DNA of 63,947 nucleotides, filler included, from an uncultured bacterium (lineage in GTDB: Bacteria; Hinthialibacterota; Hinthialibacteria; Hinthialibacterales; Hinthialibacteraceae), in assembly GCA_964449065.1 (NCBI GenBank). It is 3 parts of 3 records of this genome, joined end to end, with 100 filler letters (N's around TTAATTAATTAA, not from the genome) between each part and the next. Parts side by side here need not be neighbours in the genome. Positions count along the whole stretch, not along the records: positions 26,906 to 53,173 come from CAYVAZ010000023.1; 2 more parts are not named here. One strand, given 5' to 3'. Positions 3,767 through 54,156 of the stretch are shown one piece after another. The first letter of the stretch is position 1; the number at the start of each line of letters is the position of its first letter. The notes beneath the pieces were generated by a model. The model searched no databases. It had not been told where the DNA came from and saw nothing but the letters and a program-made list of their open reading frames with translations. Position numbers and translations under genes: made by a program.

Positions 3767-5248
3767 TTGCTTTCTGTGATTGAAGAATCAAGGGTAACTT
3801 TATCAAAATCTACTGATACCAGGAGAAAGTCTCAATTCGGTCAATTTTTCACTCCTGCAAAAACAGCACAATTTATGGCTAGTCTTTTTACCAATGCTTC
3901 ATTTAAGCAATGCCATTTACTGGATGCTGGTGCTGGAATTGGTTCTCTTTCTGTTGCCTTTTTAGAAAGATGGCGTTCAGGGGAGTTGGACTTTTCGAGT
4001 GTTGAACTTGACGCTTTTGAAATAGATTTAACTTTACATGCGTATTTGAAAGAGATTTTAGGAAGTTATTCAAAGAATGAAAATTTTAAGTTTTCAATTT
4101 ATGTTGATGATTTCGTTCGACTGGCAGTTGATTCACTTTCTGATAATCTTTTTTCTGAAAAACTACCTGAATATACTCACGCTATACTAAACCCACCTTA
4201 CAGAAAAATACGAAATAATTCGGACTATAACTTAGCGTTGAAACAGGTTGGATTTAAGACCGTAAATCTTTATACTGCTTTTTTATTTCTGTCACTATCT
4301 TTGTTAAAAAATCAAGGACAATTAGTTGCGATTGTACCTCGAAGTTTTTGCAATGGCACATATTACCGATCTTTTCGTAAATATATCTTGAAGCGCGCTT
4401 CTTTAAAGCATATTCATTTATTCACTGCTAGAAATAAAGCCTTTAAAGATGATGACGTGTTGCAAGAGAATGTTATCTTAATGATGGAAAAAAGCGCACA
4501 ACAACACAATGTAACTGTTACGACATCAACGGATGACGGTTTTGAGGACTTACGAGAACAGTCATATTCATTCAATCAGATCGTTTTGCCGGACCATCCA
4601 GATTTTTATATTCACATACCAACCTCAAACAAGTCAACACAATACGATCGTTCCGATTTATTTAAATATTCACTTGAAGAATTAGATATAACTGTTTCTA
4701 CAGGACCAGTGGTAGACTTTAGATTAAAGGATTATTTATGTGCAAATTATGATTTTAATACCGTTCCGTTACTCTATCCAGGACATTTTAAAGGCTATAA
4801 AATTAATTGGCCAATACACAATTTTAAAAAACCAAATGCAATAGTACGAAATTCGGAAACCAAAAAATGGCTTTTCCCAATAGGATATTATTGTGTTGTA
4901 AAGAGGTTTTCATCAAAAGAAGAAAAACGGCGAATTATTGCAAGAGTTGTGCATCCACATGATTTTCCTGGAACCGATATGATAGGATTTGAAAATCATT
5001 TAAATATATTTCACCAAAATAAAAATACTTTATCAAAATCACTTGCTTATGGTTTATTCACATATTTGAATACGACTGTAGTAGATGAGTATTTCAGACG
5101 GTATAGCGGTCATACTCAAGTTAATGCAAATGATCTGCGTTTATTGAAATATCCAAGCAAGGAAGAATTATTAAAACTGGGAAAATGGTGTATCGGATGC
5201 AAGGAAATATCACAAAAAATAATTGATCAAAAAATAGAATTGTTTTAA
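3767..5248 (+). CDS. N6-adenine DNA methyltransferase, BsuBI/PstI-like (gamma class)
   Basis: GQFFTP, LLDAGAGIG (motif I), NPPY (motif IV), SGHTQVNA; directly upstream of endonuclease; AT-rich. Confidence 0.9.
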   Translation: MLSVIEESRVTLSKSTDTRRKSQFGQFFTPAKTAQFMASLFTNASFKQCHLLDAGAGIGSLSVAFLERWRSGELDFSSVELDAFEIDLTLHAYLKEILGSYSKNENFKFSIYVDDFVRLAVDSLSDNLFSEKLPEYTHAILNPPYRKIRNNSDYNLALKQVGFKTVNLYTAFLFLSLSLLKNQGQLVAIVPRSFCNGTYYRSFRKYILKRASLKHIHLFTARNKAFKDDDVLQENVILMMEKSAQQHNVTVTTSTDDGFEDLREQSYSFNQIVLPDHPDFYIHIPTSNKSTQYDRSDLFKYSLEELDITVSTGPVVDFRLKDYLCANYDFNTVPLLYPGHFKGYKINWPIHNFKKPNAIVRNSETKKWLFPIGYYCVVKRFSSKEEKRRIIARVVHPHDFPGTDMIGFENHLNIFHQNKNTLSKSLAYGLFTYLNTTVVDEYFRRYSGHTQVNANDLRLLKYPSKEELLKLGKWCIGCKEISQKIIDQKIELF

Positions 5249-5250
5249 AC

Positions 5251-6207
5251 ATGTCTAAAAGCATTCAAAAGCGTATTAAAGAAGCAAACCAGATATTGGT
5301 AGACCTTGGACTTCCTCGTGCTCAACAAAATGAACGATCAGCATTGTGCTTGCTTGCCCTTTTAAATTTAACACCACGTAAGAAATGGTCTATGGCAGAA
5401 AATCCACTTGTTGGGATAACACCAATAATGGATTGGGTAAAGACCCATTACAAGAAAACCTACGCGCCTAATTCGAGAGAAACATTTCGCAGGTATACGA
5501 TGCATCAATTTGTTGAAGCGGGTATTGCTTTGTACAATCCTGATAAACCCGAACGAGCTGTTAATAGCCCACAAGCAGTTTATCAAATTGAACCAAAAAC
5601 TTTAGAACTGATTCGGTGTTTTGGTAGACCAGAATGGAAGAAAAAATTAGAAATACATCTAAATTCATACGATACGCTAAAGCAAAAATATGCCAAAGAA
5701 CGCCATCTAAACAAAGTACCAGTTAAAATCTCAGATGACAAAGAAATCACACTCAGTTCTGGAGAACATAGTATTTTAATTCGTGCAATAATTGAAGAAT
5801 TCGGGCCACGTTTTGCACCTGATAGTTCTTTGGTTTATGCTGGAGATACGGGTGAAAAATGGGGGTATTTTGATGATAAACTACTCCGGGAATTGGGAAT
5901 TGAAGTAGATTCACATGGTAAGATGCCGGATGTAGTTCTTTATTTCGGACTAAAGAATTGGTTAATTTTAGTGGAAGCGGTTACAAGTCATGGTCCCGTA
6001 GATGGGAAAAGGCATTATGAATTAGCAAAATTATTTGAAAGTTCTAAAGCAGGTTTAATATACTTAACAGCATTTCCCAATCGAACTTTGATGTCCCGCT
6101 ATCTTGGAGAAATTGCATGGGAAACTGAGGTGTGGGTAGCTGATTCTCCTTCCCACCTTATTCATTTTGATGGGGAAAGATTCCTAGGACCTTATGAGAA
6201 AATTTGA
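5251..6207 (+). CDS. BsuBI/PstI-family type II restriction endonuclease
   Basis: YAPNSRETFRR, HGKMPDVV...EAVTSHGP, AWETEVW...HLIHFDGERFLGPY family motifs. Confidence 0.9.
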   Translation: MSKSIQKRIKEANQILVDLGLPRAQQNERSALCLLALLNLTPRKKWSMAENPLVGITPIMDWVKTHYKKTYAPNSRETFRRYTMHQFVEAGIALYNPDKPERAVNSPQAVYQIEPKTLELIRCFGRPEWKKKLEIHLNSYDTLKQKYAKERHLNKVPVKISDDKEITLSSGEHSILIRAIIEEFGPRFAPDSSLVYAGDTGEKWGYFDDKLLRELGIEVDSHGKMPDVVLYFGLKNWLILVEAVTSHGPVDGKRHYELAKLFESSKAGLIYLTAFPNRTLMSRYLGEIAWETEVWVADSPSHLIHFDGERFLGPYEKI

Positions 6208-50583: not shown

Positions 50584-51159
50584 ATGAGTGTGTCGGTCAG
50601 TCCACTGTTGCAGCACCGGGTCTTGGTTTTAAACGCGAGTTTTGAAGCCATTAATATCTGTACGGCAAAACGGGCGCTGAAACTCTTATTGTCTGAAAAA
50701 GCATGCATGGTCGAGCACAACGGCCATGAAATCCGTGCGGAACGAATTTGCTTTCGGCTGCCAGAAGTTATCCGTTTGAAAAATTATATCCAGCTTCCAT
50801 ACCGTCCGATTCCGTATTCACGCAAAAACATCCTGTTGCGTGATGATTATACCTGCCAATATTGCGCGGAACCGTTTGATTCGGACGAATTGACTCTGGA
50901 TCATATTCTTCCGGTATCCCGCGGCGGGAAAGATTCGTGGACGAATGTGGTGGCCGCCTGTAAGGATTGCAACCACACCAAAGGCAACCGCTTGCCCGAA
51001 GAAGCCGGCATGAAACTTCTCCGTCCAGCCAAAAAACCGGGATTGCCTTCCTTCCTGCATTTGGTACGGTTGATGGGAAAACAGCGCGAGATTTGGCGTA
51101 AATATTTGTACTATGACGAAATGCCTGCCCCTGAGGATGTTGCCGCCCGCCAAAACTGA
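50584..51159 (+). CDS. Standalone HNH endonuclease
   Basis: VLVLNASFE, RDDYTCQYC, TLDHILPVSRGG, NVVAACKDCNHTKG. Confidence 0.92.
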   Translation: MSVSVSPLLQHRVLVLNASFEAINICTAKRALKLLLSEKACMVEHNGHEIRAERICFRLPEVIRLKNYIQLPYRPIPYSRKNILLRDDYTCQYCAEPFDSDELTLDHILPVSRGGKDSWTNVVAACKDCNHTKGNRLPEEAGMKLLRPAKKPGLPSFLHLVRLMGKQREIWRKYLYYDEMPAPEDVAARQN

Positions 51160-51243: not shown

Positions 51244-51317
51244 GCGCCTGTAGCTCAGTTGGATAGAGCACATGGTTCCGGTCCATGGTGTCAGGGGTTC
51301 GAATCCCTTCAGGCGTA
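51244..51317 (+). tRNA. tRNA-Arg (CCG), CCA not encoded
   Basis: Acceptor GCGCCTG/CAGGCGT, D-arm GCTC/GAGC, anticodon stem CATGG/CCATG with loop TTCCGGT, T-loop GTTCGAATC. Confidence 0.96.
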
Positions 51318-51824
51318 TTATTCTTCTCTATTCAACTCGGATTGATGTTCGTGCACAACAACCCATTCGCCTCGTTTTTGTTTGAATACCCAAGTCACAC
51401 GCAGTTGAATCGTTTCAATCAAAAAGTCATCTTCTTTCTGAAACTTTTCCCGCTTTAAATGATAACAAACAACCGCCAAATCATTCGTAGTTTGCATGTG
51501 AAAGTTGGTGGGAGTATGGGTATAATAGTGGTCGCTATGGTATTTGTAGTAATGTTCTAACCGGCGGGCACCCTCTATCACAGCATCTTTCACAAGAAAC
51601 TGCTGTATCGTTCCCAAATCGTTTACGTTTTTCAAACGTTGATCAACGATGTCATCCGCTTCCACAAACTGAAGTTTGTTGTAAAGGCTGTAGTAGTTTT
51701 GAATCAGCTCAATCACTTTGGCTTGAACTTTATCCCGTTCATACGCCAAAATCAAAATGGGTGAAAGTCCAATAAAGACAGTCAATGGAAATAACAATAG
51801 CCGAAATCGTTTCTTGTTTTTCAT
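51318..51824 (-). CDS. Membrane-anchored NTF2/SnoaL-like protein
   Basis: N-terminal TM; RVTWVFKQKRGEWVVVHEHQS. Confidence 0.7.
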   Translation of the reverse strand: MKNKKRFRLLLFPLTVFIGLSPILILAYERDKVQAKVIELIQNYYSLYNKLQFVEADDIVDQRLKNVNDLGTIQQFLVKDAVIEGARRLEHYYKYHSDHYYTHTPTNFHMQTTNDLAVVCYHLKREKFQKEDDFLIETIQLRVTWVFKQKRGEWVVVHEHQSELNREE

Positions 51825-51847
51825 GGAAGCCTATAGACACGACAAAA

Positions 51848-52306
51848 TCAGTTCACTTTGCCATGATGCAGATGAACAAATGTCCACCGGTTATTTTCTT
51901 TTTTAACGATGGCTGTCACTATGGATTTACTGTTTTCTCGATTTGTTTCATTCGATTTTCTCAACACATAGGTCACTATCGCAGAACGACCGGCTAACCG
52001 TATATCAAAATCAAAGGCATAATAATGCATTTCGTTATTTTGTGGAAAGCCGGCAACTGTTCCCGCATCCTTTTCCAAATAGATGTGAAGCGGTTTCCCA
52101 TTTTCCTCGAAAACGGTCATAGCAGGGGATAAATACTTGGAAACGCTTTTCCATTCCTGCCGGTTCACGAGCCGGTAAAACTCTTGTACAGCCTGTATGG
52201 CTTCTTCTTTCAATTCATGAGTATCAGCGGATACAGCCCAATACTGTACGGTTGGAATAAATATTCCTATCCCAAAAAGAATCAAAACCACGATGCCTTT
52301 CCGCAT
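51848..52306 (-). CDS. Membrane-anchored NTF2/SnoaL-like protein
   Basis: N-terminal TM; TAIVKKENNRWTFVHLHHG; GGAG RBS before ATG 52306. Confidence 0.7.
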   Translation of the reverse strand: MRKGIVVLILFGIGIFIPTVQYWAVSADTHELKEEAIQAVQEFYRLVNRQEWKSVSKYLSPAMTVFEENGKPLHIYLEKDAGTVAGFPQNNEMHYYAFDFDIRLAGRSAIVTYVLRKSNETNRENSKSIVTAIVKKENNRWTFVHLHHGKVN

Positions 52307-52518
52307 AATCAAACACTCCAAAACAGACAGTTCATTCTATGTATGTACCATACAAAATAAAGAATTTTTTGTGTAGGAGTTCTGACAGACCGGTTTTTCT
52401 GGAAACTGTTTGAGAGGAGTGAATGTTAGCAAGTATTCCATTTTCAATCGGTTAGTGATTCAGATAACCGGGTTGTCAGACCAGGAGAAAAGAAAATAAA
52501 AAAAATAAAAAAAAGAGC

Positions 52519-52546
52519 TAAAGGTTTAAGTGAATGAAGCCGATAG
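52519..52546 (+). promoter_or_regulatory. Sigma28 (FliA/SigD)-like promoter with A-rich UP tract
   Basis: TAAA-N16-GCCGATAG (consensus TAAA-N15-GCCGATAA) preceded by poly-A. Confidence 0.55.
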
Positions 52547-52554
52547 TAAATTCG

Positions 52555-53173
52555 ACAAGGTAAGAGAGTATCTATAACAAGGAGACGTTTAGAAAAACCT
52601 AAAAATGACTCATTTCAAACATCGCATCCCGGCCAAGAGAGTTTGTGGGTAATGAAATGAGGAACCGCTGAGTCACTGTAGGATGAGAATGGCAGAGGGC
52701 CGCACCCCTCCAAATTACTTTCTAGAATTATCAAGCCAACAATCCATCCTACCATAGAATGATAACGAATTGTCTTTGTGCAATTCAATCCGTCATTCAT
52801 CAAGATGTCTCCAACAGAATAACAGGGTGCTCTTTCTGACCGCTGCAGCCACAGGTCTAGGGGTATATTCCCAGGAAAAACGTGTCTGCAGAAAGACATC
52901 CTGTTATTCTTTCGGGGCATCATAATCAAGGTTATCCGAGGCTCTTGGTTATGGTGCCGCTCCGGCAGCAAACGCGAAAGCGTATGCAGTGATAAATTAG
53001 TTGTGTTTTAACGAAAAGTATGAGGCATTGGATTAACGGATGAATCCGATCCTGCAATGGGCCGCGTCATAATTACAGACTGAAAATGACACGGTATCGC
53101 AGAGAAGGACATTCGAGCCAGCAAAAAATTAAGCCATAACATCGCATCCCGGCCAAGAGAGTGAGTTATGGCT
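52555..53173 (+). ncRNA. Candidate large structured non-coding RNA, family not recognised
   Basis: At least eight consecutive stems, G-U pairs on + strand, GAAA tetraloop, identical 25-mers at 52618-52642 and 53138-53162; no credible ORF; ends approximate. Confidence 0.55.
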
Positions 53174-53273
53174 NNNNNNNNNNNNNNNNNNNNNNNNNNN
53201 NNNNNNNNNNNNNNNNNTTAATTAATTAANNNNNNNNNNNNNNNNNNNNNNNNNNNNNNNNNNNNNNNNNNNN
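53174..53273. other. Assembly gap with six-frame stop linker
   Basis: N-run containing TTAATTAATTAA; 100 nt total. Confidence 0.95.
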
Positions 53274-53355
53274 ATCCATGGATAAACTCAGACTATGTAT
53301 TATGACACGACTTTGCAGGAAGAAAATGCGAATGTTCCGAACACGAAGGAACCCG

Positions 53356-54156
53356 CTACGGGGATTGCACCTGCATCGCGATCAAATCGTACATCGGTTG
53401 ATCTTCCGCGCTGCGTTCTTGGGTCAGTTTTAAGTAGGTGGTCACGATTTTTTTGAAGTAGCGCTTGGGTACGGTACCGCCGCTGCTTTTGCGTTTATCG
53501 TAAAGGGTGGGCCCTAAGTTGTAGGCGTAAATCGCTTCTTCTAAACTGTTGTATTTCATCATCAGCTGCGTGAGATAAAGCGTGCCCAACTTGATGTTGC
53601 TTTCAATGTCTTTAATGGAAAGAACCGGCAATGTTTCGCCATCGCGCAATCCGATCAAGCGGGGTTCTTGTTTAACCAATTCGGCAAGCGATCTACCGGT
53701 TGCCGGCATCAGCTGCATTAACCCGCGGGCGCCTTTGTTGGAATGCACCCATGGGCGCAAAGTGGATTCCGTTGACATAATCGCTAACAGCAGGTAGGGA
53801 TCAAACCCGAATTGATCACTGGTTTCATCCACCACCTTTGCGATTTTTTTTTGAGCGGGTTTTCCGACGCTGGCATGGCTTAGGTCTTGAACAGCATCAA
53901 AGATTTCAACACGCCGCTCCAATTGTTCGATTCGCTGTTTTTGCTGATGCTCGTTCTGGTTCTGTTCTTTGATTTGGTTGTTGAGGTATAACTCTATACG
54001 GCGATACTTTTCAATCTCATTATCTTTTTTAATAAATAAATAGACCGCACCAGCCGTTAAGCTAATAAATGTGAGAAACATCAACAAAAACAAATAGGTA
54101 GGAATACGAACATAACTGCCTTCGTTTCCTTCTTTGGATTGAGTTGGTGGTTTCAT
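53356..54156 (-). CDS. Membrane-anchored lytic transglycosylase (SLT domain)
   Basis: TM + coiled coil; AIMSTES, SNKGARGLMQLMPAT, AYNLGP. Confidence 0.9.
   Translation of the reverse strand: MKPPTQSKEGNEGSYVRIPTYLFLLMFLTFISLTAGAVYLFIKKDNEIEKYRRIELYLNNQIKEQNQNEHQQKQRIEQLERRVEIFDAVQDLSHASVGKPAQKKIAKVVDETSDQFGFDPYLLLAIMSTESTLRPWVHSNKGARGLMQLMPATGRSLAELVKQEPRLIGLRDGETLPVLSIKDIESNIKLGTLYLTQLMMKYNSLEEAIYAYNLGPTLYDKRKSSGGTVPKRYFKKIVTTYLKLTQERSAEDQPMYDLIAMQVQSP

What the first reader, a model, noticed from the sequence alone, without database searches (positions are those of the whole stretch)
52555..53173. Candidate novel ~620-nt highly structured ncRNA
Seen: an ORF-poor stretch that folds almost continuously. 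Stems are 52609-52617/52653-52661; GTAGGATG 52678-52685/CATCCTAC 52745-52752 enclosing a GAGGG/CCCTC hairpin; 52757-52798; a ~118-nt rod 52804-52921 (14-bp core AGAATAACAGGGTG/CATCCTGTTATTCT); CATAATCAAG/CTTGGTTATG 52921-52953; TGCCG/CGGCA; ACGC-GAAA-GCGT tetraloop; GGATT/AATCC; GTCAT/ATGAC; and the terminal stem 53132-53173. Wobble positions are G-U on the + strand (A-C on the -), matching the direction of the upstream sigma28-like promoter. I do not see the hallmarks of RNase P, tmRNA or SRP. Inference: an unrecognised large regulatory RNA or very long structured leader, and the best candidate for an undescribed system here.
Basis: partly seen in the sequence, partly recalled or inferred. 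Interest (0 to 1): 0.8.

Follow-up and report, generated by a model that had tools for sequence, protein, structure and literature searches.

The report
Flagellin leader with built-in antisense RNA
This folded stretch looks like the front part of an unusually long control region of a flagellum-protein message, which carries its own small antisense RNA gene and short matching sequences that could let it pair with the message of a second flagellum protein, a new kind of RNA wiring predicted from sequence alone.

Summary
The folding is real (z -5.7), Rfam has no match, and the element is conserved in 24 of 26 genomes of one bacterial order. It is not a self-contained 620-nt RNA: its '3' end' is a contig break. 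The overlapping contig continues through a third repeat into a pair of flagellin-like genes (flaA), so the stretch is most likely the first 620 nt of an ~820-nt sigma28 leader built from 1-4 tandem ~95-nt units. The 'terminal stem' is better read as the terminator of a ~165-nt minus-strand small RNA from a second, convergent sigma28-like promoter (22 of 22 loci), complementary to the units. Two conserved unpaired motifs are exact complements of conserved motifs in the leader of another flagellin (flaD), which has the same leader-plus-antisense design, and the two loci decay together on three branches. Best reading: antisense RNAs set a threshold and the two leaders pair with each other to couple expression of the paralogs. 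It works like Vibrio FlaX and plasmid kissing antisense RNAs but is neither. No RNA data were available; transcription, pairing and the sign of control are inferred.

The parts
52519..52546 (+). Forward sigma28-like promoter (TAAAG, 15 nt, GCCGATAG) with an upstream A-tract
   Evidence: Score 22.5 with a matrix trained on other flagellin promoters; a forward site scoring 17.8-25.1 in 18 of 22 loci; one FliA gene in the genome
52553..53173 (+). First 621 nt of a predicted ~820-nt leader of flagellin-like gene flaA; continues on G000:C441:56-254 (L002), ATG at C441:255. Start site inferred from promoter spacing
   Evidence: 55-nt exact overlap; same order of parts in relatives; 820 nt; Flagellin_N and C-terminal matches
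52609..52661 (+). Repeat unit 1, hairpin H1, with loop motif CGGCCAA at 52630-52636
   Evidence: Stem verified; model R1 match 52611-52710, 32.6 bits; 25-nt identity with the last unit
52662..52670 (+). Linker site Y1 (GAACCGCTG; family form YGACCGC), complementary to the antisense RNA and to a flaD leader loop
   Evidence: mean unpaired probability 0.69
52678..52752 (+). Diverged second hairpin (P2) of unit 1
   Evidence: Stem verified; position matches P2 of relatives
52804..52921 (+). Rod of the middle domain; displays site Y2 (TGACCGCTGCAG, 52837-52848) in a bulge
   Evidence: Fold; unpaired probability 0.75; CTGACCGC in 14 of 19 leaders
52921..52953 (+). Hairpin with loop X' (52931-52943, core TCCGAGGC at 52935-52942), complementary to GGCCTCGGAAACC sites of the flaD leader
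   Evidence: TCCGAGGC in 16 of 19 leaders, in loops on variable stems in most folds; duplex -22 kcal/mol with both sites on C197
52972..52983 (+). ACGC-GAAA-GCGT hairpin; a similar small hairpin follows the X' domain in most relatives, often with a U-rich tail; possible weak stop point
   Evidence: sequences inspected by eye; no U-tail in this genome
53123..53173 (-). 3' end of a predicted ~165-nt antisense small RNA: terminator-like hairpin (loop UUGGCCG) and U6 tail at 53128-53123; body and promoter on C441:1-203 (minus strand; -10 at 176-183, -35 at 198-202)
   Evidence: (z -4.42)
53129..53173 (+). Hairpin H1 of the last repeat unit (loop motif at 53150-53156); unit completed on C441:56-107
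   Evidence: 88-96% identity in about 20 relatives; model R1 77.9 bits on C441:12-107
53174..53273 (.). Contig-joining spacer (N, TTAATTAATTAA, N); not biological
   Evidence: C23 ends at 53173, C175 begins at 53274

Best explanation
The stretch is the 5' part of a long sigma28-dependent leader of a flagellin-like operon (flaA1-flaA2), controlled by RNA-RNA pairing. Shown in sequence: forward promoter; tandem units (hairpin H1, linker Y, hairpin P2); loop X'; a convergent promoter; a minus-strand ~165-nt hairpin RNA with a terminator-like end that is the mirror of the last unit; a stem that covers the flaA ribosome-binding site. Shown by comparison: the leader of another flagellin, flaD, has two units carrying X (complement of X'), a loop Y' (complement of Y), and its own reverse promoter and terminator-like cassette. 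Inferred: each antisense RNA binds its own leader's repeats by loop kissing and lowers output (RNase III decay or early termination), setting a threshold; loop X' of this leader and loop Y' of the flaD leader pair with the partner's X and Y sites. I commit to a coupling role, in which the partner leader occupies the sites the antisense RNA needs, so flaA and flaD rise and fall together (about 0.35 for this sign, 0.2 for mutual repression, within the 0.55).
For: Conserved unit with covariation: 18 of 29 pairs change on both sides, 0 of 500 shuffles as high. Reverse promoter in 22 of 22 loci, score 17.1-18.7; only 21 sites reach 17 among 10.4 million positions of this genome. Minus-strand fold better in 21 of 22; clean U-tail in 16, interrupted in 4, weak in 2. 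On the minus strand 93.7% of cells pair, 11 of 30 pairs change on both sides; G-U in 11 pairs against A-C in 4. No other forward sigma28-like site between -450 and -60 (21 of 22 score 6.5 or less), while the anti-SD stem co-varies (cognate -14.5 against -11.3 kcal/mol, 15 of 19 better than row mean), so the flaA message should start upstream. Of 10 pairs of leader classes only A and D share complementary conserved 8-10-mers (expected 0.001 at 10 nt). X':X 9-13 nt in 13 of 17 genomes, Y:Y' 6-11 nt in 17 of 17, extended in different directions in different lineages. The flaD antisense cassette also stands apart from any flagellin gene, as a trans-acting RNA would. Element decay or loss goes with absence of the flaD leader in G005, G006, G007, G019, on three branches (p-AU 0.0012). 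RNase III and Hfq are present.
Against: No transcript evidence of either strand. In this genome the antisense span folds slightly better on + overall (-62.8 against -61.1). Upstream units keep the C-A mismatch too (10 of 12). Per genome the longest A-D complementary run (mean 9.8 nt, n=17) is little above that with other flagellin leaders (8.5, n=42), and the C197 sites rank 8th and 10th of 164 seed sites: conservation, not energy, carries the case. Four of 17 genomes lack X' (G010 and three of family f2; in f2 the leader carries X instead). G001 has an intact element but no X site was found (85% complete). Antisense binding raised predicted RBS access in only 6 of 18 loci and lowered it in 2. 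P2 hairpins before U-tails are often weak. Kinship inflates the shuffle and permutation tests; leader classes were assigned by eye; the tree is one paralog's gene tree. The C23-C441 join rests on overlap, synteny and depth, not a spanning read.
Confidence: 0.55

Rival explanations
1. The + strand makes a free ~430-nt sigma28 RNA (52553 to ~52985) that stops at the small hairpin after the X' domain and acts in trans, as a sponge for the antisense RNA and a regulator of flaD; the two RNAs lie tail to tail and flaA is reached only by read-through or from another promoter.
For: 52553-52995 holds most of the folding signal (z -5.59; the next 133 nt z -2.51). A small hairpin with a U-rich tail follows X' in many relatives (by eye). 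In family f2 a forward sigma28-like site, an X site and a terminator-like hairpin form a stand-alone cassette back to back with the antisense cassette (L239, L240).
Against: No U-tail after that hairpin in this genome; no second forward sigma28-like site for flaA; the anti-SD stem needs a transcript from upstream; G007 has promoter, one unit and gene with no X' domain.
Confidence: 0.2
2. The conserved words are protein-binding sites, on RNA or on double-stranded DNA, and the complementarity between loci only reflects one site in two orientations.
For: The X word occurs in either orientation: X' in f1 and f3 leaders, X in f2 leaders. The H1 loop and linker Y look alike (YGRCC), as repeated protein sites would.
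Against: Both seeds lie in loops of hairpins whose stems vary. Outside these cassettes the 13-mer falls in coding sequence at background rate. The only common change in X' keeps a G-U pair, and this genome's pairing extends across a 1-nt bulge. None of the 70 printed conserved words of the leader holds a CsrA-type GGA, unlike the other flagellin leaders.
Confidence: 0.12
3. The units are tandem aptamers of a ligand-sensing riboswitch (for example for a cyclic dinucleotide) that controls flaA by termination.
For: Tandem, conserved, covarying two-hairpin units in a 5' leader, upstream copies often followed by U-rich tails.
Against: No Rfam riboswitch match at E up to 5-10. The best-conserved copy is optimised for the minus strand. 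One locus per genome, one order only. It does not explain the reverse promoter or the flaD complements.
Confidence: 0.06
4. A DNA element: an invertible promoter segment or mobile-element end.
For: Two promoter-like sequences in inverted orientation flank the repeats.
Against: Same orientation in all 22 loci and 8 metagenome loci; the stems use G-U pairs and bulges; one locus per genome; upstream neighbours differ and no recombinase is conserved there; none of 7 viral pattern hits matches the model.
Confidence: 0.02

Closest known systems
FlaX sRNA of Vibrio cholerae (PMC11879080; passages read)
   Same: RNA from one flagellin locus pairs at several sites in the 5' UTR of another flagellin mRNA and sets filament composition.
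   Different: FlaX is cut from a 3' UTR by RNase E, needs ProQ, acts one way and blocks ribosome sites. Here the seeds sit in 5' leaders and in promoter-driven antisense RNAs, the match is reciprocal, and the sites lie 100-600 nt from the start codon.
Sigma28-dependent sRNAs UhpU, MotR, FliX, FlgO of E. coli (PMC10578931; abstract and outline) and CJnc170/FlmR of C. jejuni (PMC11187230; abstract and outline)
   Same: Small RNAs under the flagellar sigma factor that tune flagellar genes.
   Different: Those are UTR-derived or free sRNAs; none is described in the abstracts as the mirror of a repeat in its target's own leader.
Cis-antisense kissing systems of plasmids: ColE1 RNAI/RNAII, CopA/CopT, pIP501/pT181 attenuation (PMC5415839 and PMC4872101; passages read)
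   Same: Short structured antisense RNA from a convergent promoter, bulged hairpin with a 7-nt loop that fits the YUNR kissing signature named in PMC4872101, target in a leader.
   Different: Chromosomal, controls flagellin not replication, the target is repeated 1-4 times, both promoters need the same sigma factor, and a second locus mimics the seed.
C. jejuni flaA leader in the CsrA-FliW network (PMC4894983; passages read)
   Same: A flagellin mRNA leader with a second, regulatory role on other flagellar genes; csrA and fliW are in this genome.
   Different: That leader is short and titrates a protein through GGA loops; this leader has no conserved GGA word and the predicted partner is RNA.
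SreA riboswitch and excludons of Listeria (PMC8079631; passages read)
   Same: A leader element acting in trans on another mRNA's leader; antisense control of flagellar genes.
   Different: No ligand aptamer here, the antisense RNA is short and non-coding, and the pairing is two-way.

Membership tests
Any Rfam 15 family | Covariance-model score at or above gathering threshold | tested here: not met
   Window, 8 related loci, 10 flaD and flaA leader loci: no match in the element
Housekeeping RNAs (RNase P, tmRNA, SRP, 6S) | Is the genome's copy of that RNA | tested here: not met
   Copies found on C148, C10, C71, C83
Cis-encoded antisense RNA (ColE1/CopA type) | Own promoter on the opposite strand | tested here: met
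   Promoter-like site in 22 of 22 loci; sequence only
Cis-encoded antisense RNA (ColE1/CopA type) | Structured short RNA with intrinsic terminator | tested here: met
   146-197 nt; clean U-tail in 16 of 22; z -4.42; minus-strand covariation
Cis-encoded antisense RNA (ColE1/CopA type) | Overlapping sense transcript that it binds through loop kissing | not testable with these tools
   No RNA run listed; loop fits YUNR but binding untested
Cis-encoded antisense RNA (ColE1/CopA type) | Plasmid location and control of a replication gene | tested here: not met
   Downstream genes are flagellin-like
FlaX-type flagellin sRNA | Derived from the 3' UTR of a flagellin gene | tested here: not met
   Lies 5' of the gene, on both strands
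FlaX-type flagellin sRNA | Conserved complementarity to the leader of a paralogous flagellin | tested here: met
FlaX-type flagellin sRNA | ProQ dependence and translation block | not tested
   ProQ was not searched; no assay possible
CsrB/RsmZ-type protein sponge | Many conserved GGA loop motifs | tested here: not met
   None in the 70 printed conserved 8-mers; best CrcZ match 16.9 of 95 bits
Tandem riboswitch | Repeated conserved aptamer in a 5' leader | tested here: inconclusive
   Repeats are there but the best copy favours the other strand
Tandem riboswitch | Ligand binding | not testable with these tools
   Needs in-line probing
Type I toxin-antitoxin repeat | Conserved small ORF opposite the antisense RNA | tested here: not met
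   No shared ORF with an SD on either strand in 22 loci (compared by eye)
Invertible promoter switch | Both orientations found; perfect DNA inverted repeats | tested here: not met
   One orientation in 22 genome loci and 8 metagenome loci

The most novel reading that the evidence does not exclude
Two flagellin mRNAs recognise each other directly through two reciprocal loop-loop contacts in their leaders (X'-X and Y-Y'), and each locus encodes a sigma28 antisense RNA that removes or silences unpaired leader: an RNA-only handshake that matches the output, and perhaps the place of translation, of co-assembled filament subunits.
Probability: 0.3. Interest if true: 0.92.

Novelty: new variant of a known kind. 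Interest (0 to 1): 0.76.

Why it matters
How bacteria with many flagellins set their proportions is mostly open; the known answers are CsrA-FliW and one-way sRNAs such as FlaX. Here comparative sequence alone yields a complete predicted circuit of two leaders and two antisense RNAs, with named 7-13-nt contacts that compensatory mutations can test in vitro or in E. coli reporters. If the leaders pair with each other, it would be a conserved two-way mRNA-mRNA contact, which my searches did not find described. It also shows a plasmid-style kissing antisense design used on the chromosome of an uncultured phylum, and adds two RNA motifs absent from Rfam.

Tried and rejected
No RNA holder was listed among public runs; this says nothing about expression. 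Contigs of 4 DNA runs were laid: no piece spans the whole stretch; small-share runs were not used as evidence. Pattern scan of genome contigs: 112 loci, of which only 10 reach 39 bits or more with model R1, the rest 28.5 or less; the best outsider, L090, was judged chance. Viral contigs: 0 of 7 match. The standard promoter and terminator scan found nothing above chance (sigma70 only). RNAalifold on the first alignment missed P2, so structures are mine and lean towards these sequences. Antisense binding as a general opener of the RBS: not supported. H1 3' strand as alternative partner of the anti-SD: not kept in L152, L156, L157 (sequences). A pseudoknot between the H1 loop and Y: no compensation in G010. 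A partner for the H1 loop in other flagellin leaders: none conserved. A lead that the H1 core pairs with the second C14 flagellin leader: exact match in this genome only, and inside a stem. The antisense-versus-first-unit test (cognate better than row mean in 19 of 19, rank 1 in only 3) is confounded by window choice and kinship and is not relied on. The genome-wide promoter count returned nothing through a script fault and was redone. The 118-aa minus-strand ORF 52615-52971 has no counterpart in relatives. Resemblances to c-di-GMP riboswitches, hairpin and twister ribozymes and T-boxes were recalled leads that Rfam scans did not support.

Full report
Observation. The stretch folds far better than shuffles on the + strand (z -5.68) and less so on the - strand (z -3.01). 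Rfam has no match, and RNase P, 6S, SRP and tmRNA lie elsewhere in the genome.

The 3' boundary is an artefact. Position 53173 is the end of contig C23; the gap is a spacer and what follows in the window is contig C175. Contig C441 begins with the last 55 nt of C23. In a public DNA run, an 876-nt contig starts at 53119 with no differences over those 55 nt and a depth of 6.0, against 6.3 for the contigs on the element, while other contigs share the hairpin with a one-base insertion. That explains the break; the run may be the source of this DNA and its continuation was not shown. C441 carries the rest of a third repeat and two flagellin-like genes, the first of 800 aa. Relatives have the same order of parts on single contigs.

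Distribution. A model of the ~95-nt unit (28 rows from 16 genomes) finds it in 24 of 35 genomes of the phylum: 24 of 26 in this order, 0 of 9 outside, always at one locus, in 1-3 scored copies (up to 4 loop motifs by pattern). Eight of the 24 were not in the training set. Pattern scans add nothing outside: 10 of 112 genome loci and 0 of 7 viral loci match the model well; 8 of 8 metagenome loci show the reverse promoter and 7 of 8 a flagellin start. One matching named record (L027) is titled as an Omnitrophota MAG that PMC9324843 (passages read) places in Ca. Hinthialibacterota, so I infer that lineage.

The unit. Hairpin H1 with a 7-nt loop, a linker Y (YGACCGC), and hairpin P2. With my structure, 18 of 29 pairs change on both sides, above 500 shuffles and all slid controls; kinship inflates this. 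Private changes are shared among copies within a genome (this genome, G010, G020), which fits either gene conversion or selection to stay complementary.

A minus-strand small RNA. Downstream of the last unit is a reverse sigma28-like site (consensus recalled, then retrained on 39 promoter sites of other flagellin leaders). It is present in 22 of 22 loci examined, at a score reached by 21 of 10.4 million positions in this genome. L169 was dropped for lack of a flagellin start and L168 was not included. From it, a 146-197-nt RNA would end at H1 followed by a U-tail, clean in 16 of 22 loci; the minus strand folds better in 21 of 22, this genome being the exception, though its RNA still has z -4.42. 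On the minus strand 93.7% of cells pair and 11 of 30 pairs change on both sides; G-U occurs in 11 pairs and A-C in 4. Upstream units carry more + strand G-U (37 cells in 12 rows against 8 in 16, leaving out one invariant pair). So the last unit is the template of an antisense RNA and the upstream units look like its targets. Its loop fits the YUNR kissing signature named in PMC4872101 (passages).

Leader or free RNA. No second forward sigma28-like site lies between -450 and -60. A pyrimidine tract just before the reverse promoter pairs with the flaA ribosome-binding site and co-varies with it (15 of 19 better than row mean, 6 ranked first; four loci left out as duplicate, same genus or truncated). 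The flaA message therefore probably starts upstream, giving about 820 nt here. A stop after the X' domain cannot be excluded.

A partner locus. The genome has four canonical flagellins besides the pair, with csrA, fliW, one fliA, rnc and hfq. I fetched 40 regions with flagellin leaders from relatives and sorted them by eye into four classes. Among 10 class pairs, only this element and the flaD class share complementary conserved words of 8-10 nt: TTCCGAGGCC with GGCCTCGGAA (expected 0.001), and at 7 nt CGACCGC with GCGGTCG; one other pair has a single 7-mer. X' and Y' sit in loops on variable stems in most folds. The flaD leader has two X units, a reverse sigma28-like site between them and an A-tract before the first hairpin, giving its own antisense RNA of about 120-150 nt with a U-tail (15 candidates, all folding better on the minus strand; for this genome). 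That cassette also occurs away from flagellin genes. X':X runs are 9-13 nt in 13 of 17 genomes and Y:Y' runs 6-11 nt in 17 of 17. Against this, the runs are hardly longer than chance runs with other leaders (9.8 against 8.5 nt), four genomes lack X', and this genome's flaD sites rank 8th and 10th of 164 by energy.

Joint loss. G005 and G019 lack the unit and their best matches to FlaA are canonical flagellins. G006 has a decayed unit and gene remnants; G007 has one unit and a truncated gene. None of the four has the flaD leader sites (G019's single hit is coding), at 94-98% completeness. On a tree of one canonical flagellin (19 genomes) they fall on three branches, and one clade is rejected (p-AU 0.0012). 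G001 is the exception (element intact, no X site found, 85% complete) and G015 is ambiguous. Joint loss suggests the proteins work together, which is why I prefer coupling to mutual exclusion.

Mechanism. Shown: the parts, their conservation, strand bias and complementarity. Inferred: transcription of four RNAs under sigma28, antisense binding to the repeats, a negative effect, and leader-leader pairing that competes with it. A general opening of the flaA ribosome site by the antisense RNA was not supported (6 of 18 up, 2 down).

Comparison and novelty. It works like V. cholerae FlaX (PMC11879080, passages) in letting one flagellin locus address another's leader, and like plasmid kissing antisense RNAs (PMC5415839, passages) in build, but fails the defining location of both. 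Sigma28 sRNAs are known (PMC10578931 and PMC11187230, abstracts and outlines). Eight paper searches showed no listing that describes this element or a reciprocal leader pairing; a recent motif survey has no flagellar motif in its main text (PMC11109978, term search). Supplements of motif surveys were not read and most subscription papers are not held, so an earlier listing is possible. An earlier scan note on a kilobase flagellin leader in another lineage agrees in general design and was not tested.

Verdict. Real, conserved, undescribed as far as searched; a new variant of antisense control of flagellins with a possibly new two-way mRNA contact. Interest 0.76.

Noticed in passing
window 51244-51317: tRNA gene, anticodon CCG read from the alignment.
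   Followed up: no
window 50584-51159, 51318-52321: HNH endonuclease gene and two SnoaL-like genes upstream; relatives have other upstream genes, so they are not part of the system.
   Followed up: partly
window 53356-54156: Lytic transglycosylase gene after the gap lies on another contig, C175, and is not a true neighbour.
   Followed up: yes
G000:C197, about 4880-5700 (L200-L217 in relatives): flaD leader: a second undescribed structured leader with two repeat units, an internal antisense cassette, and a conserved AAGGAGGTG with no shared ORF behind it.
   Followed up: partly
L179-L218 and G000:C14, C95: The other flagellin leaders are also long and structured, with repeated words TCGCACCC and CAGCACCC, a conserved TCACTCGAC loop, and GGA hairpins next to the SD that look like CsrA sites (recalled shape).
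   Followed up: no
L239 and L240, around the X sites: In one genus of family f2, back-to-back sigma28-like promoters would give an antisense RNA and a short sense RNA with X and its own terminator: a possible sRNA-sponge pair.
   Followed up: partly
L263 and L264: Extra tandem copies of the flaD antisense cassette away from flagellin genes; in L264 next to a stretch that looks by eye like an integrase gene.
   Followed up: no
L163, L165, L255-L258, L262: In family f2 the flaA leader shows X itself in a hairpin loop instead of X', so the wiring differs between families.
   Followed up: partly
L160 and L169: Truncated or decayed flaA genes with reduced elements in G007 and G006.
   Followed up: partly
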